This document shows, in pieces, positions 1 to 30,339 of a DNA stretch of 64,000 nt (position 1 is its first letter; every line of letters begins with the position of its first letter). The stretch comes from Takakia lepidozioides (Eukaryota; Plantae; Bryophyta): assembly GCA_030704615.1 (NCBI GenBank), contig CM060732.1:1302001-1366000 (forward strand). Direction: 5' to 3'. The position numbers were made by a program, and so were the translations under genes. Below the pieces are notes generated by a model. It did not search any database. It was not told the DNA's origin and saw only the letters and a program-made list of their open reading frames with translations.

Positions 1-54
1 TACCGAATGTTGTTTACAACACATGAAGTGGTGATTACTTTTAAACTTTGAACC

Positions 55-2998
55 TCATACCTGGGAGTCCGCAATTGGCTCCTCCGGTGACTCCTCAATC
101 AGCTCTTCTACAATCAGCTCTTCAGAACTTGGTACCCATCTAATGCCAACCCAAGTGCATCTTAATCTCCACAAAGCGTTGTGCGCTGCTGCGCTTGAGT
201 TTAAGGATGCTGCACGTCGAGCCTGAATTGCCTCCTCACCTCTAAGGCTATCAATGGCAACATTCGATTGAAGGCTTTTGTTTCTGAATCTATGTTGAAT
301 GATCCTGAACCAGTGTTCATAGGTCTGTACCAAAGGACTTTTCTTGCATTTTGTTCCAGCATGTTGAGTATGACGCTAATATGCCGCTTTTGCCGTGTGA
401 TGCGAGTTTTCCATTCCTTGACATGACCAAACAGATAGGCTTCCATACCTTTCAACAAACCACGGGGTGTGCTTGACCAATATGTGCTGCAAATTATCAA
501 CTTAAACAATTAGCATTGTCATCTATGTTATTTTACTACAAGCATTCCAATCAACTTGAACAATTAGCATTGTCATCTATAAGTGTTATAATTGAAATGC
601 AAAATTTTACTATAAGCATTCCAATCAATATCAAGAGATGTTGTAGATACTCACAATATAGTGTGTAACTAGACCCTCCCCCCAACTCTTGATGAAAGCG
701 CGTCCGAATTCCTCCACACATTTCTTATATTCAGCTTTTTGTCCACCGGCGATTGTAAGGCCAGAAAGATAGGGTCGCAATTTATCAAATGCAACCCAAC
801 ATGCTAATCGATTTCTCCTACATGCCCCATCTTCAGTGTGGTTGTGCTCGGACTTTACCACATCAATGTACAACTTGTCGGAGCTTCCCTCTAAAGTACT
901 CGGTTTAAAGAGTTTGGCAACATGTGGGCCACTGAACGAAGGTTTGTTGGGGATATTACTCAATTTGCCAGACAGTTGATCATCTTTCATGATCTTAACG
1001 AAACCACCGTGTGCACCAATGTTGGACAACACTTTTTCCATGTCAGCAATAGCTAACTCTTGTAATTTCTTATCACGAATGGTCCAGACGAACATGAAAT
1101 GGAGGTGGACCATTTTCTCAATGATCCTATTCATGGCGTGTAAAGTGCAAATATGCACTCTTTCAATGGGGATAGGCAACACTGGTTTCCAACGATCTTT
1201 TCCCTAACTCCCACTCACGGGTTTGGCAGTAATGTTTTGGGCAAATAAGCCTCCATTTCATGTATGGGAACGCTTACTAATAGCAGCAGAGGCGTCCTTC
1301 ATGGACCCCACTACAGACTTGACTCTCTCCTGCATGCAATAAATGCAAGAATGCAAACTATTTGCACCTCCCTTCAAACCGAACATGGCTTTTATTGTCT
1401 TCATGTCGGCTGCCATGTGCCACTCTACCTTGTAATCACCAAAACCTGGGACGTGAAGAAGTTGCCTATCTTCTTGGGCTTGAATTAGCGAAGGGAGTTT
1501 GGTTTGTTGGAACACCCAGTTCAGAACCTCTGTGTTCTCCTTTGCTTCTTGAAAACAAGCTATAGGCCAAATCTCTCTCTCACTTTGCACACTGAAAAAC
1601 TTTTCACTATCCGGAGTGATGGATGGGTCTAATGCACGGTTCATGAGGGTAATACTCACTCTTTCCAGCTTTTGGGCATGAATGACCTCTGCCTCATCAA
1701 GCTTCAAGACAAACTGTAGAGGGCTCCCCTTCAATTCTGTAAAATCAAAATCAAGCAATCAATACTAAGAATATATAAAAATAAGAATATTGTAAAGACA
1801 CTGAATTTATAGGTGCACGATATAGAAAACTTACCAACAAGTGTGATCTCGTACAATTCAACCATGGTGCGCTGCACCTGCTCCACATCCGCGAAAAAAG
1901 AGTTGTGCTCGGATAGTGTCACTCGAGTAGCCTCATTCTTTTCACCGTTCTTAACCTTTTTAGGAACTTCAAGGCTGTTGTTCAAGTGGTAGTATTCACC
2001 TACGAAATCCTGAAGCTTGGAGTTCAATTCCTTACGCAATTTTGACACTCGATGCGGATTGGGTAGACATCCTACTCTCATCCCTTTGGAGGCAACTTTT
2101 ACACCACCTTTAAACTTTTTGTAAATTGCACTGTAACCTGTTTGGGTGATCCCATTCCTGTCACACGTCTCCAAAATCTCACTGGGCCCAACCTGTTTGC
2201 CGATTTCATTGAGATATTGATTTGCCATTTTTGCACCTATGTGAGTAAAAGTAGGCACATGCAACATCGAATCTACCTCTGTCCTTGAGCGAAGACTTTT
2301 CCAAATTCTTCTTGGGAACTTCTATCGCCACAAAGCCTCTTGTTGTTGTTTGATGCAACGTTCTCTTGTTGCACTTTTCGTGCAGTAGCTGGCATAATGA
2401 TACTCCGCGCCAATCTTCTAAGCACCTTGGCTTGTCCACCATTTGGTGCAAGATTGTTCAGATCTTTCCTCTAGTGTATTTGGCTTCTAGGTCCATGTGG
2501 GGTGTTGCGAACCTTACTCAATTTTTGCTCCAAGCGAGTATAAGTTGTCCTAGACCTTGTGAGCTGCAACCTAAGGGATCTCAATTCGGACTTGTGGGAA
2601 CTCGCAATCTGATCTAACTCCATCGCATGAATTGATCGTACAGCTTCCAATTGAGCTTCACAAACACCATCCATTACACGAACTTCTTCTTCTTTATTTT
2701 GAACTTGTAACCGCAGACTATGCAGCCGACTCTCATATGAAGCTCTCATGTTGCTCATGTTGCTTTCCAGAGTAATGATCCGAGCACTCAATGAATCAAT
2801 CTCCACACTTTCTACTTGAACTTGATCCCTCAATTTTTGAATCTCTACTGCGCTTTGCTGTTGTGCAGCTTCGAATAGAATTCGCCAATTTGCGGTCTCT
2901 ACAGTGGTTGAGCAAACACTTTGAAGGTGTTTCACATAACCCAGAAAACCCTCCTCTCCATCTCCCACAAATTGAAGCATGTCTCTTATGAAGCTCAT
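55..2998 (-). pseudogene. Spliced RAG1/Transib-like DDE transposase with N-terminal coiled coil, inactivated
   Basis: Joining the ORFs through GT-AG introns 1834-1737 and 654-487 gives LKLDEAE (D at 1698-1696), WHMAADMKTIKAMFGL..SCIYC (D at 1407-1405 plus CxxC), ICTLHAMNRI and THYI/HILVKHTPWFVERYGSLSVWSCQGMENSH (E at 411-409). These parallel RAG1 GYDEK..CTLC, DALH and TNYFHKTLAH..GSIGAWASEGNES. In-frame stops at 2471, 1258, 1204 and 376 and a frameshift near 2285. The 5' end is uncertain. Confidence 0.8.
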
Positions 2999-3099
2999 GT
3001 TGGGACGTACTCCTGTAGCAGGGTCAATGGGATAAAGGGATGAATCAAGCCAGAGATCTATGTTCGTACCTCCTGCTCTCCATTTTTTAGGGCAGCAAA

Positions 3100-3410
3100 G
3101 CCGTGAGCAGAACCTGTGAGCAGATTCCTGGATGCGTGAGCAGATTCCCCGAAGCGTGAGCAGAATCAAAGCGTGAACAGATTTCGCGCTGGACCTCAAA
3201 ACCGTGGGAACAAGTGGGCCTATTTCCGTGGACGCCAACTTCACTGCAAAGACGCAGTCTCCGCACCATCGGACCGAAGACAAACAGGCTCCATGACGAG
3301 AAAGTGGCACGAATGCACGATGATACATTCACGGATGAATGGATTTGGGATGAACGTAAAAGTGTTATGGATGAATGTTGGATGAAGCACGGATGAGAAG
3401 TTGTCCAGAT
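3100..3410. repeat. Cluster of short GTGAGCAG motifs followed by GGATGA motifs upstream of the transposase
   Basis: About 5 GTGAGCAG/GTGAACAG copies at 3100-3180 and repeated GGATGA at 3330-3410. Similar motifs, partly inverted, occur at 13930-14165. Confidence 0.55.
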
Positions 3411-3439
3411 GAGGGGTCTATGAAGGACTGCATGAGCAT

Positions 3440-4045
3440 GTCTCCTGAGGGATCAACAAGCGCATGCACCAGGCATTAAGGTGTCTCAACGACATCTTAA
3501 ATCGCATGCTCAGCATGAGAAATGAACCCATGGAAATCGTTGCAAGAAGAAAAATGTGGCCTGGAAAAAATCATAGGGGGAGTTGTAACCCTTCTCAGGG
3601 AATGACGAATTAAGATGTCTTCAACGACATCTTAATCCCCTGCCCTCTTTGAACATGGGAATTTCACCAAACAGGATAAAACACAATATATATCTATATA
3701 TATCTATATATCTATATATATCTATATCTATATATGTAAGCCCAAAAATGGAGAAAGACTTGGGTTTACTTGAACAAAGTGGATCCATGAAAGTCTCTTG
3801 AGGGATCAGCAAGCGCATGCACCAGGCATTAAGGTGTCGTCAACGACATCTTAAATCGCATGCTCAGCATGAGAAATGAACCCATGAAAATCGTTGCAAG
3901 AAAAAAAATGTGGCTTGGAAAAAATCATAGGGGGGAGTTGTAACCCTGCTCAGGGAATGACGAATTAAGATGTCGTCAACGACATCTTAATCCCCTGCCC
4001 TCTTTGAACATGGGGAATTTCACCAAACAGGATCAATCACAATAT
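3440..4045. repeat. Direct repeat with ~353-bp offset, each copy carrying two 26-bp palindromes (TCAA loop orientation)
   Basis: 3440-3690 is nearly identical to 3793-4045. Palindromes at 3476, 3610, 3829 and 3965 (3965-3990 has perfect arms: TTAAGATGTCG TCAA CGACATCTTAA). A TA/TATC microsatellite lies at 3686-3735. Confidence 0.9.
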
Positions 4046-4056
4046 ATTATATATAT

Positions 4057-5571
4057 CCGACTGCATGTCACAAACAGCAATAGTCATAACTCGCCGGTAC
4101 GTAGGATCATACACATGACAGGCCATGGTCGTCCAATCCTTCACTTGCTTCACGTGATCAAACATTCCCAGGACTTATGAAGATCACCCCCGGCCTACAT
4201 TCTACGCACCAAGCTAACTCCAGAACCCTCCGCAACTGTGGACATCTTGAACAAGTATACTTTTTGGGACCCTTGTCCTGGGAAAACACTGTCCTGGATG
4301 AAGTCCTATCAACTTCTGCGCTTCAATTCTAGGATGATATCTACGTATCCTTTGTTGCCTGCCCCAGTCCTAAGGACGTTGATCTGATAACGAGCATTTG
4401 GAGAAGCCAATGTTGAGAAATGGTCCATCACAAAGTCAAGCGATGCACTATCAAACTGAGTCGTTGTCTCGTCCGACTCCCCCAACAGATGTTTCTGCAA
4501 GAACCTTTTGCTTGCTGCCATAGCAATGGCTGATGGTGATGCAGTGGGAGCATTTTGAAATTCTTGCTGAAGCAGCGAACGCACTGTGTCAACACTCTCC
4601 CTGCAATCTCCTCGCGACACTGGATGTGCATGGGTGCCCAAATGGATACAAGCCCGTGTGAGGTGGTTGATACGGTGCAACACGTAGTACATCCGTGCAT
4701 TGCATTCCGCCATGCACTGTGGCACGACTTTACAAAACTTGCAAACGACAGAACTGCTCTTTGGAGGAGCACACCCTACTTGAAATGGGTTGTCACAGAC
4801 TCCTTCCCACTCCGTCTCGTTTTCCACACCGGCCATTTGGAAATGCTGGCAATCCAAATTTGCACAACGCAAGTGCCCAACGCAAATGGATCTCCGAAAC
4901 TTTAGGCCATGCGGATTACAGATATTCGAAGTTTTAGTCCGACACCATGGGTGTACATCGTGTTTCTTGTCCATGCCCGCCATGAGTCCAGCCAAACCTC
5001 CACATGACGTCGGAGGTGGCAGTTCAAAAACGATGTCTCCATCAAAATCAGCGGGTAGAAATTTCGCTCTTTGGATCCGCTGTGTTTCCCAAACAATGCC
5101 TCTCACATCGCTCTTGCATCCTAGCAACCCTCTCAACGACTGCAACTTGGGAATGACACTAATGATCTCCTGGACATCGGGGTCCACCAGTATAGGAGGG
5201 TTCGTAGGACGAGGGACCTCTGTGACTTTGTCTTCTGAACTGTCCGAGAGGTCGACAAATGTCGTGGAGGTAGTTTCTTTTGTCTTGATGGGGACCGATT
5301 TTGGCGCCTGCACCACCAAAGCTGCTGTTCCGGGCGTGAGTATAGTGTCCGATGAAAGGCGTCTCTGATCTCCATGAACGCGGTACTTGGCGGGTGGAAC
5401 TCTCCACTCTCTTCGACCATCCCGTTTTTGCGGCTTTTGAACCTGTGTTCCCTCGACCTTCCCTCTACTATCGTACACCTCTCTAACCACATAGACGGTC
5501 CCTGGCTCAAAGCGGAATGTTATGCAAATCAAATCCTCCTCAACAACGGCCAGTCCATTGTCATCGGCCAT
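4057..5571 (-). pseudogene. GCM/WRKY-like zinc-finger plus MULE-like transposase, truncated after the first catalytic Asp
   Basis: ORF 4309-5655 contains CVGHLRCANLDC, CKFC and CNARMYY..IHLGTHAHP (GCM-like). Reading through stops and a frameshift gives DFIQDSVFPGQ..MFDHVKQVKDWTTMACHVYDPTYRRVMTIAVCDMQS, which resembles the MULE first-Asp region. The sequence then breaks at ~4057. Confidence 0.65.
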
Positions 5572-6710
5572 GGCGCTTAGGCGTGCAGAGGGGAGTACAG
5601 TATTACCACGTCTGAGGTGGGAGACATTGCGTGCATGGATTGGGGTGAAGCACACTGGACAATGTGGGGCGACTCCTCTTCTGTGTTCATACTATTTATC
5701 TTCGCACAATGTACTTTCTCCTTTCCATCATTCTCATGGTAATCATGCAGCATTTTGCCGCCATAGAAACAGCTGAGCAGTATTAAGAATTACGAGGGTG
5801 CGTTCAATTTTCTGACAATGACATATTTGCCACGGACAAACCCGCAGCCCATTCCATAACCCCTATGTAGGTCGAACACCAACTGACACCCACGGGTACG
5901 TGGTCTCCATACTGAGGTTCCACTAACAGGGCCCAGACCGGCAATGATGGTCCATACCAGTTGGCCATCACCAGCAATTCGAACAAGTCAATTAAGAGCC
6001 GTTTCTGTTTTATGGGAAAATCCCAAATGGATGATTTCGGAGATGAAACCCCAACTGCCGTCCATCCATCCATTTCCTAGACCCTAATGGAGTGTTGGAA
6101 GATGAGTGTCCCGTAAGTGTCATTTCGAACTATTCACACTGGAGCCTCCCAAGAACGTCATTGTTTCTGCAAAGAAGAGGTCGCGTAGGAAGTCTCTTTA
6201 CTACACGTCGGCGAGGCAGAGGTTGAAAGCGAGAGAGAGGATGAGGAAGACTCCGAGGGCGCTTGATCTTACCGAGGGGGAGAGCGATCGTGAAGGGGAA
6301 GGATCTGCTGGCGAAGGGTTATAGAATAGGGGAGTCGCGGAGCCGTCTGTGGACAAGCAGCTGGAGGAGCTTTTGGAACTTCCCCTTTTGCGTGAGGCTG
6401 GGATGGAAAGAATGCCACCTATAAGAGAGGAGGAAGGCATGCCAAGCAGTGATGTTACTCCTGTGCAGGAGGTCCTTACGAAGCAGGTGGCTGTGCATAC
6501 CCGGGAGCGCCCATCCAACATAGCGCTGTCTTTGCGGGCGTTGAAGAACAAGGCACAAGTGGGAGGCAACATGCAAGCAGTGGATTTGGAGACGGACAAC
6601 GCTGAACAGAGTCTCCTTCAGGTACCACCACCATTGCGATGCATAGTTCAGTTCGTTTTTGCATTGTTAGAGATGAAAACTGGTGGAGCCAGCGGAGTAT
6701 GCCCTGCATT

Positions 6711-6821
6711 TTAAGATGTCGTTGACGACAGCTTAATCTGCAATCACATCCTCACCGCCTTACCCTCCTCTCTATTTCCCACATGTTCCAATGCAGTGCC
6801 AAATTAAGCTGTCGTCAACAC
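6711..6821. repeat. Two palindrome copies (one partial, inverted) in the first intron of the ParB-MTase gene
   Basis: TTAAGATGTCG TTGA CGACAGCTTAA at 6711-6736 and TTAAGCTGTCG TCAA CAC at 6804. Confidence 0.8.
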
Positions 6822-7266
6822 AAGGCTTGATTTGTCGATCAAACAATGGGTGATGTTTTGCAGAGGAAACGGAAGAAAGCCTGGGAGAGTCTCCAGTTAC
6901 CAGCCAAGAAGAACGCACCAGACCAGAACTCTGAAATGGTCGTCAATGTGGTGAATGAAGAGGAGGTGCCAAGGGTTCACTCTCCGCAGCGGGCTGTGGC
7001 TACAGTGGAGCAGCTAGTGGACACACAGGCACGAGTGAAGGGGAAGGCACAAGTGCAAGGAACAATGCGACCTGCGGAGAAGGGGTCTTCCAGTGGCCGT
7101 CCAAAGCCTGCTAAGGTTCGTTCTAGCTTGCCCATTCTCATCTGTGAGGGTTGCTGTGAATCAGAAAAGAGGTCGATAAGTTCAAAGCCTGCCATGGTTT
7201 TTTGAAGCATAGAAGACAAGGCTGGTGGGTATTTCAGAGACTTTCATACGAACTGGAGGAGGCTGA

Positions 7267-9239
7267 TTAAGGCATCGTTGATGATACCTTAATCTGGTCA
7301 GCCATTCACATATTGAGGGTTTCTTTCAAACATAGAGGAACACGATTAAAGCACAAGTTTCCGCTTTATGAGTGGACAGTGAAGCAGAATGCAGAATGTA
7401 GATTAAGGCATCGTTGACGATACCTTAATCTGGTCTGTTATTCCCAGGGTTTCTTTGAAACAGAGACGAACAAGCTTACTGGTAGGCATACACGCTGGTG
7501 AGGGTTTCTGAAGCAGAATGAAACATGCAGATTAAGGCATCGTTGACGACACTTTAATATAGTCTGTCATTCCCGGTTTGAGGGTTTGAGTGGTGGGTAG
7601 TCTGCACAGTGAGGGGATAGCTGAAACAGAAATGAGGAGGGGAATTAAGGCATCGTTGACGACACCTTAATCTGGGAGTGGGAATCCGTTTAGCGAATAC
7701 TTTGATGCAGAGAGGAACAGGATCAGGAGTGGACATTATACACATTCAGTGGTTGTTTTCTTCTGAAATATGGAGGACGATTAAGGCATCGTTGACGATG
7801 CCTTAATCTGGCCTGTAAAATGTACGTAGACGCATAGTTTGAGGCAGAGATGAACAGGATTAGGGGTGGATAGTCTGCCTAGTGAGAGGAGTTCGAAACC
7901 AAAAATATGAGTGGTATTAAGGCATCGTTGACGATGCCTTAATCTGGAGTGAAAACCTAGTTTTGATTGGACTTTCAAGCAGAGATGAACAGGATCCAAG
8001 GTCGAGAGTATCAAAATTCAGTGGCTGTTTTGAACAGAAATAAGGAGGCAGATTAAGGCATCGTTGACGACACCTTAATCTGAACTGTCAAATACACTTT
8101 TCAGGCATACTTTGAAGCAGTTCAGAGACAGGATTAGTGGTGGATAGTCTGCACTTTGAGGGATGTCTTGAACATAAATGAAGATGCAAATTAAGGCATC
8201 GTTGACGATACCTTAATCTGGAGTGTAAAATCTGTTTCTAGGGATACTATGAAGCAGAGAGGAACACGATCAGGGGTTGAGAATATGCTCATTGAAGGGC
8301 TGTTTTAAACATAAACAAGGAGGCAGATTAAGGCATCATTGACGACACCTTAATCTGGCCTGTCAAACACTTTTCAGGCATACTTTGAAGCAGATCTAAA
8401 CATGATTAGTGGTGGGTAATCTGCACTTTGAGGGATGTCTAGAACATAAATGACGATGCGAATTAAGGTATCGTTGACGATACCTTAATCTGGAGTGTAA
8501 AATTTGTTTCTGGGGATACTATGAAACAGACAGGAACTCGATGAGGGGTGGAGAATATGCTCATTGAAGGGCTGTTTTAAATACAATCAAGGAGGTAGAT
8601 TAAGGCATCGTTGACGATACCTTAATCTGGAGTGTAAAATTTGTTTCTAGGGATACTATGAATCAGAGAGGAACACGATCAGTGGTGGGGAATGAGCTCA
8701 TACAAGGGCTGTTTTAAATATAAACAAGGAGGCAGATTAAGGCATCGTTGACGACACCTTAATCTGGCCCGTCAAAAAAACTTTTCAGGCTTACTTCGAG
8801 CAGTTTAGAGACAAGATTAATGGTGAGTAGTCTGCACTTTGAGGGATGTCTTGAATATAAATGAAGATGCGAATTAAGGCATCGTTGACGATACCTTAAT
8901 CTGGAGTATAAAATCTGGACTTCGATTCATAGAGGAAGAGGATGGGGTGTGGAGAGTAGTCACATTCAATGAGTGTTTTAAACAGAAATAAGGAGGCAGA
9001 TTAAGGCATCGTTGACAACACCTTATTCTGTCCTGTCAAATACAGTTTGATGCTTACTTTGAATCGGAGAGGAACAGTGTCATGGGTCCAGAGTGTGACT
9101 ACAGACGACAGCTTGATCTATGATATTATTTTGAATGTGGTATATACTTTGAAGCATATGAAGTGTACTTTTCAATAGGTGGGCGTGTTTAGAATCAGGG
9201 AGGAAGAGTCATAATAAGGCATCGCTAACGACACCTTAA
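7267..9239 (+). repeat. Array of 15 26-bp palindromes (11-bp arms, TTGA loop) at ~136-bp period
   Basis: Copies start at 7267, 7403, 7532, 7645, 7781, 7917, 8053, 8191, 8328, 8463, 8600, 8737, 8874, 9001 and 9214. Intervening ~110-bp segments are diverged homologues forming two roughly alternating types. Confidence 0.95.
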
Positions 9240-11044
9240 TAGTGGTCTGAATCTGTTGTGGGAAAACACAAATGAATGTAGAATAAAAGGAAGAAGGCAG
9301 GGGAAAGCCAGCCTGCACAGGAGACATCTGTTCCTGATACTCAAGATGAAGACCCATCTGACAATTACGAAGATAAAGTGCATTCATTGATGTATACCTC
9401 CAAGGTAAACTCCAGAAGGTCATAAATTCCATGGAAGTTCGGGACGGCACTCTTATGATTCCCCTATGCAGGATGATTTCCATGCCTGCCGCTTGTCCAG
9501 CCTTGCATCATGATATCAAGAAGCTACAGGGTGATTTCATCCACGGGTACTTGAAGGGCTCCGCAGTTTTTTACATTTCAGTAACAGACATCCAGGGATC
9601 AAACTGATTGACGAAGAGATTATGGCCAGTTGGGACCCGCTTTGGAATGAGGTGAATTCGGAGTTTGAGGCAAAGCTTTCCCATAACCCATTTCACATGC
9701 AGTACATGGGGAAGATGTTCTTCGTATGGGATGGTAATCACCGTTTGGTTGCCTGGATGGAATATATCACAAGAATGTATGTCGACGACAAAGACTGGCA
9801 CCACCGAGTTCTGTCAATGGTTTTGGATCCACAAGGCAAAATAACCCAACTTCTGACTGCCATGCACGATGTCAACAAGTAAGTTTTGTTTTGTTTCCTC
9901 TTTGTGAACTACATTTTTGTCCCTCGCTTCATTTCTTGTACTCATTTGCTTTCAATGCAGGGGCACGAAGACGTCACACGTCACCACGAACATAGTGCAT
10001 ACACTATTTCGGATGCAAAGTATAGGAGTCATGCCTTTGGAAACATTCTCCAGCGTCTTGTCTGCGGAGACACTGAAGAAATGCCAGACAATCAAGAAGT
10101 CTGAAGCTTGGTTCAATCTAACGAGGGAAGCTTTCCTCGAGTACTTGTACGCGGTAAGACTAGTTTCTTGTTTGTCTTGAGTTATCTTTCATTTTTGGTT
10201 TGAAGTTGTCCCTACATGGCCTGACATGTAATAATAAGCCACCGTTCTTGTGTCACAGCAAGAAATTGCGGATGCTGGAGAGCGAGCGAAGCTGGAGTAT
10301 TATGCCACTACTCCGGAGGAAGAGAGAACAGCGAATGGGGTGGAGACCAAATGAAAGATGAGATGGATACGGCAAGGAAAAACCTCAAAAGTGCGTTTGA
10401 CAAGCACATACGAATTGCTGACCCTGGGCTGGGAAAGGGGTTTCTGGAGCAGATTCGGATACACTGGAACAAGCCCACCAAGCCTGAGATGACACAGGAA
10501 AAGATCCACCGTCTGTCGATTTCCATGGTTGAGCCGGCTCAAAAAGTGAGGTGGCTCGAAATCTGGAACTCGGATCCAATCGTCCGGGACACAAATAATT
10601 TCCCAAAACCGCATAGGGACCCTGAGACAGGAGTGGTGACACCAGTGAGCGACCGTGCAATTGAGACATGGTTGCACAAAGCCACCTTCTGGAGCCAGGT
10701 AAGAATTTCCAAACGTTCCACATTGTTCGCAATGACTTCACTGTTTTTATAGTTGAACCACTGGACATATGGTCGTTCTTTTTGCAGCTGGAGAAGCGGG
10801 CCATTGAAATAAGTCACTACTAGACTACAAAATCACCATGACATCTCCCAGCATCAAGTTTGAGTCCTACGTTCGTAAATGGAGAAGAGAGCTCTGGAAG
10901 TATGCATTTTTCCGGGAGTTCGAGAAGGAGGGAGGGATTCTTCGATGTAAAGATTTCGATCATCAGTACAACGGCAAGGAGGCAATGAAACGTCTGCTGT
11001 ACAGGTGTGTGCACTGACCCATTTCTCTTTCTGTGAGGAGGAAA

Positions 11045-11414
11045 TTACGGTGTCGTCAACGACACCTTAATTTGCGCATTAATTGGCCCATATCCTGCTT
11101 ACAGTGGACCTTGTGGGACTTTCATCTTGTAAGGGGGTTTGATTTAAGGTGGCCTCAATCTCTGCAGCATTGTCCCTACTTTCAATTGCAATGCAGTCTT
11201 GTGCAGTTTTGTATTGTGTCATTCTCTTATTTGATTGCTATTTGAGAGATGGAATTAAGGTGTCGTTGACGATACCTTAAATCCATGCCCTCTTGGGATG
11301 GGTTTGCCATGAAGGGGGATCTTACATGGTCTGATTGTTTGGAAAATTGGCAACATCAGTTATGGAGTCCTGCCTCTTAGTGCCTGGATTAAGATGTCGT
11401 TGACGACACCTTAA
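11045..11414. repeat. Three palindrome copies in another intron of the ParB-MTase gene
   Basis: 11045-11070 (TCAA loop), 11255-11280 and 11389-11414 (TTGA loop), all inside intron 11005-11503. Confidence 0.85.
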
Positions 11415-12059
11415 TCCTCAGAGTGAAATGCAGCCATTTATGGCAGTTCAATGCCATTTCTGTTGCGTTCAAGGATAAAGCGGGATGGTCTTATTGTCTG
11501 CAGGTACTTTTGCTTTGTTCTTATTGCGGAGAACACACTGAGTGAGGATCCAGACTTCATTTGTGGATGGGCGAACCCAAACGATGAAACCACAATGTAC
11601 ACTGCTGGCATTGTGAAGGACTGGGGTCGGGCACATTACCATGACTGTGGGTGGTACGTGGATTGCCCCAGAGCTTCGACTCCCTGGGAGGAGAATGTCA
11701 TGAGGAATCAGAACGAGAACGCAGATTCACTGGCCCCCCGGACAGATGAGGAGTTGCAGCAAAGAGCCTTGGCGCTACTGAATAAGAAGGAGCCTACAAA
11801 ACCGGCCACCCCTGCTGACGGCAAGAAGAAAAAGAAGGGGAAACAGACAGTGGATGCTTCAGCGGCTGCTGGGGTTGCTAGGGAAGCAGTGGTAGACCCT
11901 CCTGACACTGCTAGGCCAGCTGGGGGTTTTGTAGATTTGACTGTGCCCAATAAACAGCAGACACAGGTCGCCATCACATCCACCGCGGTAGATCGGCGCA
12001 GTACACACATAGCAAAGAAACGCCCTTATGGAGCACAGCTGTGTATGTCCAGGGTGGGT

Positions 12060-12423
12060 TTGCATGCCTTGGAGTACCTGGAATCAACATTAGGGCCGCA
12101 AGCTGGGCAGGCCTTGTATCCCCCGTGTGCGCATCCTGCTAGCAACCCATAAGCTGGAAAGTCGTGGATTGACCACATCAAGATGGCCCTCATGCGAAAT
12201 GACTGTTGCCCCACTAGGCTACTTCCATCCAATGCCTCCACACCAACTTCCCACAACAATTTCAGCTCATCCACAAGGGGCTGCAGATAAACATCTGCAT
12301 TGTCATTTCCCACAGATTGTGGTCCAGGAATCAATAAAGCCAACATCGTGAAAAATGGCTTAGTACACAGCCATGGTGGAAGATTATAGTTTACCAACAT
12401 GACAGGCCAAGTTGACCATTTGT
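12060..12423 (-). mobile_element. CACTA/EnSpm Tnp2-type transposase fragment
   Basis: STWPVMLVNYNLPPWLC..MLALLIPGP..DVYLQPLVDELKLLW..RAILMWSIHDFPAYGLLAG..ACPAC is the canonical Transposase_21 core. Confidence 0.9.
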
Positions 12424-14639
12424 TTGATTTCATCCTTGACATCCCAGATGGGCTTCCAGTGCCTGATATCATTCCCACAGATGTGACTCCAGCCTGGAAT
12501 GCTCATAATCCACTTTATTGGCAGTGGGCCTTCTCTTTCAGCAGCAAGTTTCTGTCTGACGCTGGGTCGCTTTTGATTTTCCAGGGTGAGGACATGGCAT
12601 CCCGCCGGATGCTTCACAGCTACATGAAGTCCTCGGGGTTCAAAATCCGCAAAATTTGGACCCGTGTCAACACCCTGCCACTATCTAGTGCAGAGTTTTC
12701 CGGGCAGAAGGTACTCTCCTGGGCTTTGTTGTGTGTTATTGTTTCGTGGAATTGCCCTTAACAACGTTTCTAACATTGGTGCTGTTGCAGACACATGTGT
12801 TCAAGGCCATTTGTCTTGCTCAAATTCGGCCAGACACCACTCTTGCTCATGTTGGCCATCGACGTTTGGGAAGGGGGGCTTCACATAGACCCGGAATGCG
12901 ACCCTGTGGAATCCGATGTTATCCACAACTATGTGGACTCCTCCCAGACATTGAAAAAAACTGGTGGCATTCCATGGAGAGGTGCTCGGGAGAAGTCACC
13001 CGCTTTCATGCAGACTTTGATTGAGACATGTAGCCAGCATGGTGGGAAAGTGGTGGACCTGTCCATGGGAACAAGTTGGTGCCCAATCAAATTCCATTTC
13101 TTGGGTGCACTTCTTTGCCTTCAGATTGTGCTTCTTGCTTTGTTTCGTGGATCCATTTGCACTGTTGCAGGGGCTTCCTTCCATGCATGCAAGTATGCAG
13201 GCAGGCATTTTTTCAGGATGGAAGGGGACGAGCAGCTCTACTCTCAAGTCATCGCACCTTTGTCTGGGGGTTCATCGCATTCGACCCAAAGTGAGAACAT
13301 TGTTGTGGAGCCGGATCTGCAAGAGCCCGATGCTCTGGATGTTGATTCTGATTTCTCATGTGAGTAAGTGCTAGTTCAGTTGTGGCAATTCACTGACACG
13401 ACGGCGCATCCTTCCATTTCCATCTTTCCTGCACAAGTTGGGCCAGCTGAATGTATATGGACTTACATTGTTTGTTTGTGTGTACAGGAGCCCAAGGTCG
13501 CCACGGTTCCTCCCTTTCTTTGCAAACCCGCAATTTTTCCCAAGTCCGAAAGCAGATTTTAAATTGCCATGTTATGTGGAGGCTGCAACTTCGGAATTTA
13601 GTCTCCTCTCTTCTCCCCCTGGTTTGCTTTTAAACAGAGAGGGTTTTGTGCAAAGCAGGGCTAGTGTCTTCATAGACAGTTCTGCCTTCGTTTTGGACGC
13701 CGACTCCAGTAGCACAAAATATTCTTCGTGGAATGAATCTTTAGTTATTAAACAATTTACTTTGAAGCACCAAATGGCCTCTCCACCTTCTTTGCAAATG
13801 TGTGTCAGCAACTATGTCGACTTTTGATTGCTGATGAAAGGACAATCACAACCCTCACCAGTGGGCAGAAGTTCACTCTAGAGGTAGGGGGATTTAGCAA
13901 CCACTACTGAAAAATGCATCTTAGTTTTGCATTCATCTAGAAACTACATTCATCCATGTACCATTTGTCGAACATCCTTTCATCCCCCATTCATTCATCG
14001 TTCATCCATAACGATGAATGACGTATGCATGATATACTTGACACAACCCGCAGTAATAGGTCCTCTAGGCCGAATAGGTGTCCGCGGTTATAGGTGAGCA
14101 CATGCAGATCCGTGAGCAGAATTTTGCTCACGGAATTTTCTGCTCACGGAATTTGCTCACGGTTTAGCAATCCCCTCCATTTTTTGGGGAAGTTTGACTT
14201 CGGCGTCTGCTCCTCTAGTAATCGGCCTCTCAAAATCAACGGTGCATACTTTCCATCAATTGCAACCTGCCCGTTATAAGGAGGTTGCTTGCTCAACGAC
14301 AAATTCGTGATCTCCGACAATGCAGGTAACAACTCAAATTCTCACTCAGACATGGGGTCAATAAAAGGCAGTATCAATTTGTTAATTCCTTGGAATTGTT
14401 TGACTAATGGAATGCTCCAATTTCACAAAGTTGTGAGGTTTTAGGAATTGCCTGAAGTTCAGATGCTGATCGCACGACTGGATATGGTATGGGACCGGCG
14501 GTAACACTTCATAAAGTGTGGCTTCTGTTATCTGATACAAATACCGAAGTTTATTTGATTTAGCTTCAATTAACTTATTATAAGTTGAATTTCAATTCAA
14601 ACTTATTTGACTTTATTTATCCTCAAATGTGAAACAGGT

Positions 14640-17600
14640 GTTTGTTGACACAGGTGTCCACCTACTCTCGGCCCATTGTTCTATGCCCCGATGTACCAGA
14701 TGAGGTCCTCCCCAGTGCCTTCACCATCACCATAATGCAGCTTGAATCAGAGAGACTTCCGGTCTTTTTAAGCTGGCCAGCAGCTTGTCGAGCTCCTCAT
14801 GATAAGTGTCCTCTGCTGTACAATTACAAGCATACTTTTTAAATCACTTTCAACAGGAGGGACATGTTATCAGAAACAAGGGTAGAGATATTCAACTGCT
14901 TGCTCTGCTCTCTACTGGTTTCTATGAAAAATCTGAACTGGGCACGGGGTCTATGGCCATAAGGCAACGTCTCATGACTACATTCTATTATAGCACCAAC
15001 AGATATGATTTGACAAACCCTGGGTTCTGACAGATTACTCACAAGTCAAGAGTCCCCCCCACATGTGTATGCTTGAGAGCTTCATTGTAATTTTGCTCAT
15101 GGGCCTAGATGATGCAAGCAGTCAGCAGCAACGTAGGATTGCATGTGACTCAGGCTTGCATTCAGCCTGGATTGCATATGGCTGTGCATAAAAAGATAAC
15201 GGAATTTGAAATTAGGAAACGCAGGTCAACATGAAACAACAGGAAACATCAACTAGGGTCTGATGTAAGTAACAAAGGTTGGTGGACAGAAGTTGCTGCG
15301 TTTGCCAACGCATACCATCAACCAGGCATCATAGTAGCGCATTATGAATTCCAGGACTTCAGACTTTGTGGCTTCTTGAGCAAATATCTGCTTTCAAAAT
15401 TGTAATGATTACAAGTTGCCATCTGGAGCTATGTAAAAAGCAGACATGTGGAAGGTAGTAGGGAACAAAAGATACCTGTCATCTCATCAAGAATGGCAGC
15501 TGAAGTGCAGAGGACTTCATCTCTGTCACTGCTTGTTAACAAAGTCTTTTGCTGAAACTGCCATATTCAACCAAACTGCCCCATGATGAACCATTTGCTC
15601 TAAAACATCTATACTTTACAGGTAAGCAGCGAACAAGCAATCCTTAAAACATAGCACCTCAACCAGAGGCTGCCAGTCCCTTAATCAATCAACACCGCCG
15701 TAACTTCGCTGGTCACATGGATGCACATGTGCTCAGACTTCTGCAATCATGCACTCAATGCTACCCTAAGGCAGGGAATAACACGTCACTTTGTTGGGTA
15801 GTTGCCACCAGGCATAACTGGAACTCTATAGCATACCTCCCTCGCTCCAAAGTACAGCACATTCCACTTCACAGAAAACAGAAAATACATACACTCACTG
15901 CATATTTTTTCTCTACTACAGGATTGAGAGGAAATCCTGAGACAAATCCACCATGGCGGTATCAACCAGTCTACTGAATCCACAGCATGCTGCAAATGAA
16001 CATAATCCAACATCATTGAGTAACAATCAGGTAACAAGGCTCAAGAAGAACATGACAATAATAATTTTGAGATCAAGACTGTGCTAATTTATTTTCTTTG
16101 CAGAGAAACGGAGAGGTGATGCTCCAAAAGCAAGCACTTCTGTGTGAAAATGGAGCAACCTTCAACACTTCGCAACTGCAGCGAAAAGAGTAGCCAATGG
16201 ATTGAACAAATAAGTTAAGCTAAAACATAATTCTGATCAAAACAACTTGCAAAGCCAAGGCAATGGGTCTCAGTTCTGACTCCATTCATGTGACTGGATT
16301 CCAATGCATATTTCAATCACTACTTAACTCGAGAACCTTCCTGACTTGATCTACTAACCTCAAAAATGGCAGATCACACTACGAATCAACTGCAACTTAT
16401 GACTGCATCTCTGAGTTCTTCGGATACACTGCAACAAAAAGGTGATAACAGTTCACCTTTGACTGCTATTTCTCAACATCTTAGAGCTCCTGCAGACTTC
16501 CAAGTTCAGGAGCTCTGCCAGCTGAGCATCGCTCCGATGAGCTACAGTGATAGAAACAAATCCAGGGAATTATAGTAATTACTACAATTATTGCTGCGAC
16601 CCTGCCAATCAAAATCACTGCAAACCAGTAAAGATCCACCCAGCGATCAGCTAACATACAAAATTCACATGCAAAATCAGGGACATTCTAATGAGAGGGA
16701 AAATCAGGCTGAAATAGGTTGAATACTTAAGGGAAAGGTTGAAGAGACAAATATGATGGGAGAGCTGTAAGAGAATATCTGAATGACGAAAGAGCTGGAA
16801 TACCTGCTAGCAACTGATGTCTTACGTGTGGGCGCTGGACATATCCAAGAGTGTGTGAACTGCTGGGTGGCACTGGATTCGCCTTTGGCAGTAGTGAAGC
16901 ATCGCTTGCAATACCTTAATAAGGAACCATTACTATGCCGGCCATCTACCTTTTTCCGCAGCCTTGAGCTGCATTAGAGTGACTATTTGGATCTGTTGTG
17001 GCGGAAAACTGCAAACTTAGCTGGCAAGGCTTAGTGAAATTGGGAACTATTGGACGCACACTGGGACGTATGAGAGGGCACGTTGAACACACCGGCCAAG
17101 TCTCAAAGCGAACGAAAATCATTTGGATGGGCAACCATCCGTTGGCCCATTGAACAAATTTCGATTGATCTCATATTACTTTGGGGCCTCTTACATGGTA
17201 CATTGAACATACTGGCCAAGTCTCAAAGCGAACCAAAATCATTTCGATGGCCAACCAGCCGTTGAGCCATCGAATGAATTTTGATTGATCTCATATTAGT
17301 CCGGGACTTGTGAGAGGATGTCTCAAACGTACTGGCAAAGTTTGGAAGCAAACAAAAATGATTGGGATGGGCAACCATCCGTTCACCCGTTGAATGTACT
17401 CCGTTGGATCTGCTATTACTTTGGGACCTGTTGGACTGTGTTTCGCGTGTTCATGTTTTTTTTTTCATTCTGTTTTTTAATGGGGCATGTAATGACTCCA
17501 TATGCAACGTGCGTGCCAAATTTGGGAGCGATCAAAATTCATTTGGACCCAAAACCACAGTTTCTTCCCTATTTTGCACTCCAAACTTGTTTTGTGTTCT

Positions 17601-20150
17601 ACTTCATGCACTCTTCATAAAGAGTTCTGCAATAGTGAGCGAAGAGAACACTTTTTTTTGGGGGGCATTTTTTATTGGTCCAAATTTTGGCAGGGGAGTA
17701 GCAGTGGGATGCTGGAAGCCGCAGAACAAAATTGAACCAAAAACAAAATCAATGCGTGCCAGAAACCCCCAACGAAAGGCAGTGCAAACTATTTATTGGC
17801 TTAAAATTAATTTAAATTCAATTAAGTTCTGGAATGGCTTGAGGGGTGAGCGCGTCGATGGGGAGGCAAATGATTTATTCGTCTATTGTGTCTCCGAACA
17901 TATGTTGCACACATGTTCAAGCACATGCGGGCAAAAGATGGGCTTCAACCCATCCGTTCAATGGGTGCAATAGTCGTGCACGCATTGCAGGATTTTTTTT
18001 CTCGCAATGAACAAAAACCAGATGACAACTGAACGCCTCATTGGCCCATCAAACAAATTTCGATTGATCTCATATTACACTGGGACGTATGAGAGGGCAC
18101 GTTGAACACACCGGCCAAGTCTCAAAGCGAACGAAAATCATTTGGATGGGCAACCATCCGTTGGCCCATTGAACAAATTTCGATTGATCTCATATTACTT
18201 TGGGGCCTCTTACATGGTACATTGAACATACTGGCCAAGTCTCAAAGCGAACCAAAATCATTTCGATGGCCAACCAGCCGTTGAGCCATCGAATGAATTT
18301 TGATTGATCTCATATTAGTCCGGGACTTGTGAGAGGATGTCTCAAACGTACTGGCAAAGTTTGGAAGCAAACAAAAATGATTGGGATGGGCAACCATCCG
18401 TTCACCCGTTGAATGTACTCCGTTGGATCTGCTATTACTTTGGGACCTGTTGGACTGTGTTTCGCGTGTTCATGTTTTTTTTTTCATTCTGTTTTTGAAT
18501 GGGGCATGTAATGACTCCATATGCAACGTGCGTGCCAAATTTGGGAGCGATCAAAATTCATTTGGACCCAAAACCACAGTTTCTTCCCTATTTTGCACTC
18601 CAAACTTGTTTTGTGTTCTACTTCATGCACTCTTCATAAAGAGTTCTGCAATAGTGAGCGAAGAGAACACTTTTTTTTTGGGGCATTTTTTATTGGTCCA
18701 AATTTTGGCGGGGGAGTAGCAGTGGGATGCTTGAAGCCGCAGAACAAAATTGAACCAAAAACAAAATCGATGCGTGCCAGAAACCCCCAACGAAAGGCAG
18801 TGCAAACTATTTATTGGCTTAAAATTAATTTAAATTCAATTAAGTTCTGGAATGGCTTGAGGGGTGAGCGCGTCGATGGGGAGGCAAATGATTTATTCGT
18901 CTATTGTGTCTCCGAACATATGTTGCACACATGTTCAAGCACATGCGGGCAAAAGATGGGCTTCAACCCATCCGTTCAATGGGTGCAATAGTCGTGCACG
19001 CATTGCAGGATTTTTTTTCTCGCAATGAACAAAACCAGATGACAACTGAACGCCTCATTGGCCCATCAAACAAATTTCGATTGATCTCATATTCTTTGTG
19101 ATCTGTTTTTGGATACTTCCTGTTGCCACATTGGCAGTAACATGTAAAAACATTCCGAACAATCATAGATCCATCCAATGAGTTAATTTGCAAAATTGAA
19201 CTTGAGAATTAGGGACGACTATAATAAGAGGGAAAAACAGGCTGAAATGTGTTGAAGAAGGTGCCTTTATGAGCAGTGACCATGCACCATCCACCCCTGC
19301 TGGTCTCTTGTAGCTATTGATCCACAGGGAATCATAAGTAATCTTGTGTTGAATCTGCCAACAAGATAAAGAAGCAAGAGGCAGAAAGGTTACCAGTCTT
19401 GGAGTATGTCGAGGCCCCCAGCCACAGTATAGGTGTGTTACTGCTGCTGCCGCTCCCACTTCACCATCCACCCATGCAGGTCTCTTGTAGGTATTGATCC
19501 ACAGGGAATCATAAGCAATCTTTTGTTGAATCCGCCAGCGAGATTAAGAAGCAAAAGGCAGAAAGGTTACCTGCCAGTCTTGAAGTATGTCGAGGCCCCC
19601 ATCCACCACCAGAGTACACAACGCCGGCACCCGTGTTCAATTCAACTTTCCGATATGGATAGATCGTTATAGCGGCAGAAGTTCTCCAAGGACACACGAT
19701 CTGCACTCGCGAGACCGAGAATGCACACAGACGGACACAAGAAGGAGACGGCGACAGGATCCGAGATTAGCAGGCCACAGTTTTGACACACCAAACAGCA
19801 TGAAACAGGCCTGCCAGATTAAGCCCGGGCACATCCCAGGGCATGATGTTATGATCTCATCAGCAGCCTCCCCTTGGAACTGTTTGTCTTCCTCGCGAGC
19901 TTGAAGCAGGATCACATAGCTACCAAAACAGAGAGAAAAAGAGAGGGAGTGTAGAGGAATTCGAAGCAAGCGAAAGATTAACATTTTGTACCTCTACAGC
20001 GGCCACGCCCCCGCATACGAAACCCGACGTCTTAGTGAAAAAGTCGCGCTGTCTTGAATGCAGCCGTGCCCTGGATAAGAAAGTGAGAAGAAAGTTATTG
20101 CATGCTGATGATGTCCACTGCGACTACTAAGTGACACCCTGTGATCGTGA
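14640..20150 (-). pseudogene. Decayed multi-exon gene, possibly a sigma-70-like paralog
   Basis: Many small GT-AG-bounded segments. The last one reads EELDKLLASLKRPEVSLI(fs)LHYGDGEG..MGRE*V (sigma region 4-like). Others read SDAQLAELLNL, LQLIRSV and MLWIQ*. Numerous stops. Confidence 0.3.
17058..19093. repeat. Near-identical 1019-bp tandem duplication with internal ~120-bp subrepeats
   Basis: 17058-18076 is repeated from 18077. The internal unit ends in AAATTTCGATTGATCTCATATTA. Confidence 0.95.
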
Positions 20151-22010: not shown

Positions 22011-22420
22011 GACACTGACAGCCTAGATTGTTCCAGCAAACACCCAACTCAACTTATCAGACCAGTTCCTATTCTCAATTGCATCTGCTACTCTCTGTAA
22101 TCCAACAGGCATTTACCTTTTTGCCTCGGTTGTCCCAGTACCATTGACTGGGTCAGAAAAATATTCATCCCACAACTTATCCTCGTCTTTGTTACCTGTT
22201 TCTGGATACTTTCCTGTTGTCACATTGGCAGTATCATGTCAAAGTCACTCCAAACTATCTAGCTTGCGAGAGGGCCATCTCAATATGCCATTTCATTCTC
22301 CTCAATTTGGATTCATGGTTGTCATTTCTGCATCCGTTCGTACTTGAAATGTGAACTGTGAGAGCTTCAATTTGTTTTTGTGGACCCAATTTCACCTTCT
22401 CGTTAATGCTAGATTTGCAG

Positions 22421-22614
22421 GAGCATCTTTTCATGCCTGCAAAAACACCGGAAGGCACTTCTTTGGCATGGAAGGAGATGCAGAGCTCTTTTCTAGCGAG
22501 CTTGAGCAGCTTGCATTGGGCTCTACATCTGCCCCCCACACAGAGGTAGTTTTCGAGGAGGCCGACGTTCCTGACGAAGATCTGGACGTGGACTCTGATT
22601 TTGAGTGTGAGTAA
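22421..22614 (+). pseudogene. Paralogous last exon of the DNA methyltransferase
   Basis: After a TTTGCAG acceptor it reads GASFHACKNTGRHFFGMEGD..DVDSDFECE*, matching GASFHACKYAGRHFFRMEGD..DVDSDFSCE* at 13171-13367 with the same intron position. Confidence 0.85.
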
Positions 22615-30070: not shown

Positions 30071-30339
30071 GCGTGCGATGGAATCGGGGCGATTGCAAGA
30101 GCAGCTCTCAGACATGCCTGCGTCGTGCTCTGGCCGTGTTGCTGCCCGATTTGTGGCAAAGCATTCGCTGCTACGTTCCATGTACGCAACTCCCAAGTAG
30201 GGGAAGGAGCAGTGGTGGCAGAGTTTCTTTCTTGCGTGGTCCAAGATTGTGGAAGTTGAAGTCTCCACTGGAAGTCCATGAGCTATGCTGGTGAAGTATT
30301 CCACAACGGGAGACGGAGAAGGGGGGACAGCAGGCTGTA

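What the first reader, a model, noticed from the sequence alone, without database searches (positions are those of the whole stretch)
9431..13367. Prokaryote-type ParB plus N6A/N4C methyltransferase that has acquired spliceosomal introns
The beta-class motif order and the DGNHR ParB motif suggest bacterial or phage ancestry, yet the gene has about 8 GT-AG introns. It could write 6mA or 4mC in a plant genome. The catalytic motif reads DIPD rather than DPPY/SPPY, so activity may be altered. The palindrome core GTTGAC is a GTYRAC (HincII-type) site and a speculative target.
Basis: partly seen in the sequence, partly recalled or inferred. Interest (0 to 1): 0.75.

Follow-up and report, generated by a model that had tools for sequence, protein, structure and literature searches.

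The report
Plant transposon's ParB-methylase-like accessory gene
This is a broken copy of a spliced gene carried by a repeated plant jumping element; its protein is predicted to join a bacterial-type ParB domain to a DNA-methylase-like domain with a worn catalytic motif, and it likely binds the element's own 26-letter palindromes to keep the element active rather than writing a methyl mark, an arrangement already reported in algal transposons.

Summary
The ParB/Srx fold (model pLDDT 90.5; 12 of 12 structural hits in that superfamily) and a beta-order N6/N4-methyltransferase-like domain belong to one GT-AG-spliced gene: a homolog (L001) gives a 9-intron, 983-codon open frame. The context was missed. 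The gene is cargo of an 11.1-kb Mutator-like DNA transposon (3089-14176; 9-11-bp target duplication; truncated divergent transposase), probably starts near 6241, and this copy is dead (five frameshifts, a stop, a CACTA fragment). All 22 palindromes lie in its introns or non-coding end; relatives carry their own palindromes, so GTYRAC is not a conserved target. Motif IV matches (D/N/S)PP(Y/F/W) in 0 of 10 readable members, the intact one included (DIPE), so a pseudo-methylase that binds its element (VANC-like) is favoured over a 6mA/4mC writer; neither was tested. ParB+N4/N6-methylase transposon cargo is published for brown and red algae; I found no paper on the land-plant form. This scan already noted the family on other genomes (7 notes).

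The parts
3089..14176 (.). Mutator-like DNA transposon copy, 11.1 kb, inserted into a reading frame of another element
   Evidence: Flanking direct repeat and matching ends; one DNA-run contig joins 3089 to 14187; removing the insert gives an open frame across the site
3080..3088 (.). Left target-site duplication CCATTTTTT (the direct repeat extends to 11 bp, 3078-3088)
14177..14185 (.). Right target-site duplication
3089..3180 (+). Left end: short imperfect inverted repeat with GTGAGCAG subterminal motifs
14090..14176 (-). Right end: imperfect inverted repeat with subterminal motifs
3476..3990 (.). Three palindromes (3610, 3829, 3965) and one decayed copy (3477) behind the truncated transposase
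4060..5700 (-). Transposase gene, broken and cut off after the first catalytic strand (MFDH..CDMQS); Cys/His zinc-finger-like N-part. Its 5' extent is not fixed
   Evidence: Homologous, divergent gene upstream of ParB in L035, L065/L067, L070/L071. No Pfam or PDB match
6241..6621 (+). Probable exon 1 of the ParB-methylase-like gene (low-complexity, charged; one premature stop at 6322-6324)
   Evidence: a putative-RNA contig of a paralog covers 6146-6618 and 6861-7108. The link to the ParB exon is inferred
6864..7115 (+). Probable exon 2 (low-complexity); intron 6622-6863 holds one palindrome (6711)
7267..9240 (.). Array of 15 palindromes TTAAGGYRTCGT-TG-ACGAYACCTTAA at mostly 135-138-bp spacing, inside the probable intron 2 (7116 to about 9281-9323)
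9300..9878 (+). ParB/Srx-fold exon (box II DGNHR), frameshifts at about 9412 and 9600
9961..12058 (+). Four exons of a conserved middle region of unknown fold and a low-complexity linker (9961-10153, 10259-10698, 10788-11004, 11504-12058); frameshifts at about 10347 and 10809
11005..11503 (.). 499-bp intron holding three palindromes (11045, 11255, 11389)
12059..12430 (-). Foreign CACTA Tnp2 (Transposase_21) fragment replacing the start of the methylase-like region; identical to a high-depth element in DNA runs; real insertion or assembly join not resolved
12431..12710 (+). Methylase-like exon with eroded motif IV (DIPD, 12438-12449) and the following strands
12791..13074 (+). Exon with motif X and motif I (PWRGAREKS ... 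DLSMGT); frameshift at about 12858
13171..13359 (+). Exon with motif II-III region (GRHFFRMEGD) and acidic tail; the stop codon is split by intron 13360-13487

Best explanation
The locus is a broken copy of the accessory gene of a multi-copy, Mutator-like plant DNA transposon, and intact copies encode one spliced protein predicted to join a ParB/Srx-fold domain to a beta-class methyltransferase-like domain that likely no longer methylates and likely helps the protein bind the element's own palindromes to resist host silencing. Shown: the element with its ends and target duplication, the single gene, the conserved introns, the non-coding palindromes, the eroded motif IV, and the breakage of this copy. 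Predicted from models and profile matches: the two folds. Inferred: a dimer of the protein reads the two arms of each palindrome (parS-like), the ParB nucleotide site (DGNHR, kept in most homologs) works as an NTP switch for loading or spreading, the methylase-like domain serves as a dimer or DNA-binding scaffold (as eroded METTL14/MTA9 domains do), and the outcome is VANC-like self-recognition. Broken copies such as this one would be served in trans.
For: ParB fold: AlphaFold model of homolog P0001, pLDDT 90.5, pTM 0.80; all 12 VIA hits with Z>=2 among 48,161 chains are ParB/Srx relatives (best KorB Z 7.7, rmsd 2.6, 90 aligned); Foldseek is led by Noc, Srx, SerK, ParB. [DE]GNHR in 80 of 109 motif matches among stored proteins. 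Methylase fold: P0167 matches PF01555 at E 7.9e-4, below the curated cut-off; all 30 ESM Atlas hits are PF01555 clusters, best 0.94; 3 of 3 PDB sequence hits of alignment A6 are M.RsrI and M1.HpyAVI; 34% identity over 68 residues to a phage methylase across motifs X-I-II. One gene: L001 has 9 GT-AG introns and no internal stop in 983 codons; 21 of 25 loci with >=3.5 kb downstream (9 of 12 clusters) carry methylase exons downstream on the same strand, none on the other strand; Adiantum gene models hold both parts. Motif IV: DIPD, DIPE, DIPI, DVPR, DLLE, DILG, DVP-stop, DVPF, DFPI, HLPT; 0 of 10 fit (D/N/S)PP(Y/F/W), whose aromatic residue stacks on the target base (PMC7544214). Palindromes: 22 of 22 non-coding; 16 of 37 long loci have 3 or more copies of their own 22-bp palindrome against at most 2 in shuffles; spacings lean towards whole helical turns (31 collapsed spacings, p 0.006 at 10.5 bp, 0.027 with a period scan).
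Against: No binding or enzyme data. One of 10 members (P0078, DVPF) keeps the aromatic residue; the Asp of motif IV (9 of 10) and the acidic residue of motif II are kept; the methylase-like exons are about as conserved between the window and L001 (31-43%) as the middle region (23-36%), which also fits a living enzyme. Five of the ten motifs come from decayed copies. The domain that would read the palindrome arms was not identified (middle region unfolded, no Pfam match). 21 of 37 loci showed fewer than 3 palindrome copies, L001 none (its contig holds only the coding part); two of the 16 positives (L037, L039) may be an unrelated repeat and L049 has another centre. Helical phasing is not significant without the window's families (p 0.09). 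The methylase model is poor (pLDDT 57.8, C-half under 50) and its best VIA Z of 5.8 is within noise. ParB Z values are under 8.
Confidence: 0.55

Rival explanations
1. Intact members are active amino-methyltransferases with an unusual motif IV; ParB guides them to the palindromes, where they write 6mA or 4mC (for example on the central CA/CG) to block host 5mC silencing.
For: Motif IV Asp and Pro, the motif I Asp and last Gly, and the motif II acid are kept in L001; DVPF in P0078; the domain is conserved across distant loci; this is the role proposed for algal counterparts (PMC12477816).
Against: 0 of 10 motifs fit the consensus, including the intact L001 (DIPE); motif I lacks the FxGxG Phe and in L001 the first Gly (DWNASTG); eroded motifs mark the non-catalytic partners METTL14 and MTA9 (PMC7544214).
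Confidence: 0.22
2. The eroded domain is the scaffold half of a heterodimer, as METTL14 is to METTL3; an active paralog from another element family supplies catalysis.
For: Beta-class enzymes act as dimers (PMC10406627; PMC7544214). Unchecked notes of this scan describe relatives on other genomes as likely active.
Against: No member with a canonical motif IV was seen among 7 long proteins and L001 scanned or in the 80 loci. No whole genome was available to look for a partner.
Confidence: 0.1
3. The palindromes are transposase or host-factor sites, or by-products of tandem amplification, and the ParB-methylase-like protein acts elsewhere (for example as a general chromatin or transposition cofactor like MURB).
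For: 15 of 22 copies are one tandem array; a second element in the window has similar palindromes with no ParB gene seen; the transposase has its own zinc-finger-like domain.
Against: The element ends carry a different repeated motif (GTGAGCAG) where transposase sites are expected; palindromes sit in three separate introns of this gene and at matching places in relatives; ParB-adjacent inverted-repeat arrays were also seen in red-algal elements.
Confidence: 0.13

Closest known systems
Accessory gene of Sola1-1_Ec32, Ectocarpus (PMC12477816; passages, reference list passages and a supplement search seen)
   Same: [quoted passage not shown]
   Different: Brown alga, Sola-1 carrier with 4-bp duplication; the passages seen do not mention palindromes or an eroded motif. 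Here: land plant, Mutator-like carrier, motif IV eroded. Sequence homology to it was not tested.
Plavaka accessory genes PAG2 and PAG3 of red algae (bioRxiv 10.1101/2025.02.11.637652; passages seen; supplements closed)
   Same: Transposon cargo with PF01555 methylase (PAG2) and ParB domain (PAG3); tandem inverted-repeat arrays next to the ParB gene; homologs also in Chondrus Mutator elements.
   Different: Two separate genes, fused to SET and 2OG-oxygenase domains; EnSpm carrier.
Phage/prophage ParB-fold + N6_N4_Mtase fusions (bioRxiv 10.1101/2025.10.10.680097, passages; ParB-terminase loci in PMC4738411, passages and section 8)
   Same: Same two domains in the same order; GxxR box II.
   Different: No introns; no close relative found in viral or prokaryote contigs; plant version has a long middle region and an eroded catalytic motif.
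VANC anti-silencing proteins of Arabidopsis VANDAL Mutator-like elements (PMC5735166; passages seen)
   Same: Accessory protein of an element that binds short, family-specific motifs amplified in tandem in the element's introns and non-coding parts.
   Different: Unrelated protein; 9-bp non-palindromic motifs; binding and demethylation shown by experiment there, only inferred here.
MpDN4MT1 of Marchantia and N4CMT of Adineta (bioRxiv 10.1101/2021.02.12.428880; PMC10406627; passages seen)
   Same: Bacterial-type beta-class amino-methyltransferases in eukaryote genomes.
   Different: Intact SPPY motif, shown 4mC activity, host genes without ParB; not transposon cargo.

Membership tests
ParB/Srx superfamily | ParB/Srx fold | tested here: met
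   Model pLDDT 90.5; 12 of 12 VIA hits in the superfamily, best Z 7.7; Foldseek concordant but no E<=0.001
ParB/Srx superfamily | Box II GxxR phosphate motif | tested here: met
   DGNHR in the window; [DE]GNHR in 80 of 109 motif matches
Canonical partition ParB | HTH and dimerisation domains, parA partner, CTP clamp | tested here: inconclusive
   No Pfam HTH_ParB or ParB_N match; middle region not folded; no parA seen; nucleotide binding not testable
Beta-class N6A/N4C DNA methyltransferase (PF01555) | Motif order IV-TRD-X-I | tested here: met
   C-half aligns to motifs X-I-II of beta enzymes; N-half model ranks CcrM, M1.HpyAVI, M.BceJIV first, weak E-values
Beta-class N6A/N4C DNA methyltransferase (PF01555) | Pfam gathering score | tested here: not met
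   Best 19.9 bits against 26.7, on a half-domain with a read-through intron; window exons no match
Beta-class N6A/N4C DNA methyltransferase (PF01555) | Catalytic motif IV (D/N/S)PP(Y/F/W) | tested here: not met
   0 of 10 readable members; 1 keeps the aromatic (DVPF)
Beta-class N6A/N4C DNA methyltransferase (PF01555) | SAM-binding motif I FxGxG | tested here: inconclusive
   DWNASTG (L001), QMYAGCG (P0133), DLSMGT+G in most host copies, +R in this copy: partly kept
Beta-class N6A/N4C DNA methyltransferase (PF01555) | Methyl transfer to DNA | not testable with these tools
   Needs assay or long-read kinetics
Mutator/MULE superfamily | Target duplication of about 8-11 bp, inverted ends with subterminal repeats | tested here: met
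   9-11 bp duplication and imperfect ends; 8-9 bp and subterminal repeats described in PMC5225508; the upper range of 11 bp is recalled
Mutator/MULE superfamily | MULE DDE transposase with WRKY-GCM1-type finger, CxxH, often SWIM | tested here: inconclusive
   Motifs read by eye: G.H.HP finger and first-Asp strand in the window, CFFH in L071, CxC SWIM-like in L065; no Pfam or PDB match
CACTA/EnSpm | CACTA ends, 2-3-bp duplication, Tnp2 transposase of its own | tested here: not met
   Ends read AGGG..CCCT with 9-11-bp duplication; the Tnp2 piece is a 372-bp foreign fragment; the CACTA criteria are recalled
Algal transposon ParB + N4C/N6A methylase accessory proteins | Both domains in one accessory gene opposite the transposase | tested here: met
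Algal transposon ParB + N4C/N6A methylase accessory proteins | Common descent with the algal proteins | not tested
   Algal sequences were not fetched; no tree built

The most novel reading that the evidence does not exclude
Seed-free land plants host a widespread transposon lineage that runs a phage-derived ParB/parS-like self-recognition system: an NTP-switched ParB clamp with a methylase-derived module loads at helically phased, family-specific palindromes in the gene's own introns and shields the element, and its broken kin in trans, from 5mC silencing. The palindrome centre has lost its CpG in all 22 copies here while the arm CpGs are kept in 20 of 22 each, which would mark the centre as the base that the module flips or modifies.
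Probability: 0.3. Interest if true: 0.75.

Novelty: new variant of a known kind. Interest (0 to 1): 0.5.

Why it matters
Only VANC has been shown to let a transposon bind and unsilence its own sequence. The algal papers propose ParB-methylase cargo as a second route without test. This land-plant lineage offers matched protein-palindrome pairs, an intact gene model (L001) and a split from enzyme to likely pseudo-enzyme, so the idea can be tested directly. A ParB-type clamp working on plant chromatin would also be a programmable tool. The locus itself is dead and does not show a new source of 6mA or 4mC in plants.

Tried and rejected
No whole genome is held, so paralogs were seen only through run contigs. 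Pfam and PHROGs on the window's exons gave no match to ParB or PF01555 (one PHROG methylase at E 0.13). A homolog search with the DIPD exon found none among 62 candidates. Sequence search of the PDB with the ParB alignment gave 5 unrelated weak hits. Viral contigs (72 pattern matches) and prokaryote genomes (56) gave 0 confirmed relatives; phage and plasmid tblastn gave only E 5-9 rows; the phage methylase used came from such a row, so its pairwise E-value is biased, and the window's own pieces scored weakly against it (15 of 1000 shuffles as high). No RNA holder was listed for this locus; spliced contigs come from runs only guessed to be RNA and from paralogs. ESM Atlas on P0078 gave low TM values (0.30-0.35), 7 of 10 rows ParB_N clusters, a lead only. 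Alignments A5 and A7 mixed the two half-domains wrongly and were not used. GTYRAC as target: 26 sites in the element against 0.78 per kb outside, explained by the palindromes; not conserved in relatives. CACTA carrier rejected (see membership). No tree was built and no complex was predicted. Paper searches found no description of the land-plant gene; a supplement table of PMC12973397 lists ParB (2) and ParB_C (1) domains among MULE accessory proteins without comment and no N6_N4 row. Iyer et al. 2011, cited by PMC12477816 for green-algal relatives, was not read, and bioRxiv supplements were closed; either may cover plant members.
Full report
Observation. Three-frame reading of 9400-13500 shows the DGNHR motif near 9730, DIPD at 12438-12449, and further on PWRGAREKS, DLSMGT and GRHFFRMEGD. 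Seven GT-AG introns separate the coding blocks. The window's exons match neither PF01555 nor a ParB model. The only strong Pfam match in the span is a CACTA Tnp2 fragment on the minus strand (E 9e-42), which run contigs delimit as 12059-12430 with 0 differences to a high-depth element.

The gene is real and conserved. A profile of the ParB exon found 861 proteins at E<=0.001 among 1.84 billion representatives. Several Adiantum models run on into methylase-like sequence, two of them with an added NIF phosphatase domain. Eighty metagenome loci (53 clusters at 95%) repeat the exon order. Of 25 loci with at least 3.5 kb downstream, 21 (9 of 12 clusters) have methylase exons downstream on the same strand, and there was no hit upstream or on the other strand (the profiles were iterated on these same loci). 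L001 is intact: 9 GT-AG introns give 983 codons without an internal stop (the contig lacks the 5' end). Seven of its introns match positions in the window, one lies in the part replaced by Tnp2, and one is absent here. Identity to the window is 44-52% in ParB, 23-36% in the middle and 31-43% in the methylase-like exons. The hosts of these loci are unnamed; seed-free land plants is my inference from the introns and the fern matches. Contigs from runs guessed to be RNA show the 13360-13487 joint (1 contig), run from 13073/13075 into next-exon-like sequence (2 contigs) and join 6618 to 6861 (1 contig). They come from paralogs, and an intron-less DNA copy could not be excluded.

Folds. The model of homolog P0001 has pLDDT 90.5. 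All 12 VIA hits among 48,161 chains are ParB/Srx relatives (KorB Z 7.7, PadC 7.6, SerK 6.3, Srx 6.2), and Foldseek agrees without reaching E 0.001. For the methylase C-half: PF01555 at E 7.9e-4, 30 of 30 ESM Atlas hits PF01555, and M.RsrI and M1.HpyAVI as the only PDB hits. For the N-half the model is confident over about 80 residues only; its top Foldseek rows are CcrM, M1.HpyAVI and M.BceJIV at E 0.4-0.9 and its top VIA rows are amino-methyltransferases at Z 5-6, within noise. Together this supports the beta order, more firmly for the SAM half than for the catalytic half.

Catalysis. The consensus is (D/N/S)PP(Y/F/W), with the aromatic residue stacking on the target base; METTL14 (EPPL) and MTA9 (NALW) are eroded partners (PMC7544214, passages). 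The ten readable members give DIPD, DIPE, DIPI, DVPR, DLLE, DILG, DVP-stop, DVPF, DFPI and HLPT; five other clusters were unreadable there. None fits the consensus, one keeps the aromatic, nine keep the Asp. Motif I is partly kept. So the DIPD oddity is inherited, and I put activity of intact members at about one in four.

This copy is dead. Frameshifts lie at about 9412, 9600, 10347, 10809 and 12858, a stop at 6322-6324, the Tnp2 fragment at 12059-12430, and Arg in place of the last Gly of motif I.

The carrier. CCATTTTTT flanks 3089-14176 on both sides, extending to 11 bp, and the ends read AGGG...CCGTGAGCA in inverted order. One DNA contig joins 3089 to 14187, and removing the insert leaves an open frame in the flanking element. 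1,668 contigs of run X1 lie on the stretch, spread over 80-100% identity, so the family has many copies. A minus-strand gene at 4060-5700 has homologs at the same place in 3 locus clusters. Its motifs, read by eye, look like a WRKY-GCM1-type finger and a MULE core, with CxxH in L071 and a SWIM-like tail in L065 (features described in PMC1702500 and PMC5225508, passages). No library confirmed this, so 'Mutator-like' rests on the duplication, the ends and these motifs. Here the transposase stops after its first catalytic strand.

The palindromes. Twenty-two copies of a 26-bp palindrome lie in the element and none outside it or in 5 shuffles. With two upstream exons that splice in frame (inferred; homologs have 161-240 residues before ParB), 19 lie in introns of this gene and 3 behind the transposase. 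Of 37 loci of 3.5 kb or more, 16 have 3 or more copies of their own 22-bp palindrome, against at most 2 in shuffles, mostly upstream of the ParB exon or in a middle intron. Arms differ between families. The centre is TG, CA or CG in 8 of 9 other families examined, L049 being the exception, which suggests an ancestral CG decayed by 5mC deamination (inference). In the window the centre is CG in 0 of 22 copies while each arm CG survives in 20 of 22 (the array copies are not independent). Spacings lean towards multiples of 10.5 bp (p 0.006 fixed period, 0.027 scanned, 0.09 without the window), which is weak support for a protein bound on one helical face.

Mechanism. Shown: a spliced two-domain accessory gene, opposite a transposase, with family-specific palindromes in its non-coding parts. 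Inferred: the protein binds those palindromes as a dimer, uses its ParB site as a nucleotide switch, and keeps the element unsilenced, the methylase-like domain acting as scaffold. The parallels are VANC, which binds tandem motifs in introns and non-coding parts of its element (PMC5735166), and phage ParB-N6N4 fusions as the likely source.

Novelty. The pairing is in print for Ectocarpus Sola1-1_Ec32 and, as two genes with inverted-repeat arrays, for red-algal Plavaka elements. Nine paper searches found no account of the land-plant form (listed under Tried and rejected). Seven unchecked notes of this scan describe the same family on other genomes; they are leads, not support. Verdict: new variant of a known kind, interest 0.5.

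Noticed in passing
window 25400-27860: A second element with GTGAGC/GCTCAC motifs at both ends and 10 copies of its own palindrome (ATGTGGGCGT-TG-ACGCCCACAT) in 105- and 118-bp units; it shares the inner CGT-TG-ACG with the main family; no ParB gene seen. Possibly a non-autonomous relative.
   Followed up: partly
window 22420-22750: Remnant 3' end of another ParB-methylase-like copy (motif II exon and the intron that splits the stop codon), with GCTCAC motifs near 23420-23435.
   Followed up: partly
window 1-3088 and 14186 onward: The host of the insertion is another decayed element with several minus-strand frames (coiled-coil protein; a Cys/His-rich frame at 631-1758) and no Pfam match at cut-off.
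   Followed up: partly
window 12059-12430: A 372-bp CACTA Tnp2 piece without ends, identical to a high-depth element, replaces roughly 200 bp of the gene; filler insertion or assembly chimera.
   Followed up: partly
window 17058-19093: 120-bp repeats with an inverted motif around CATCC, and a duplication of about 1,018 bp.
   Followed up: no
window 30200-38000: Exons that look like a plant plastid sigma factor gene (KRKMIAANL..; read by eye, name recalled).
   Followed up: no
window 40000-46500: Decayed LINE-like element on the minus strand (read by eye).
   Followed up: no
proteins P0169, P0170 (Adiantum capillus-veneris gene models): Family members with a C-terminal NIF/FCP1 phosphatase domain after the methylase-like domain; motif IV reads HLPT in P0170.
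   Followed up: partly
protein P0078, ESM Atlas row 7: A fungal cluster with DUF3723 (22% of members) appears among weak structural neighbours (TM 0.35); a possible fungal ParB-like parallel.
   Followed up: no
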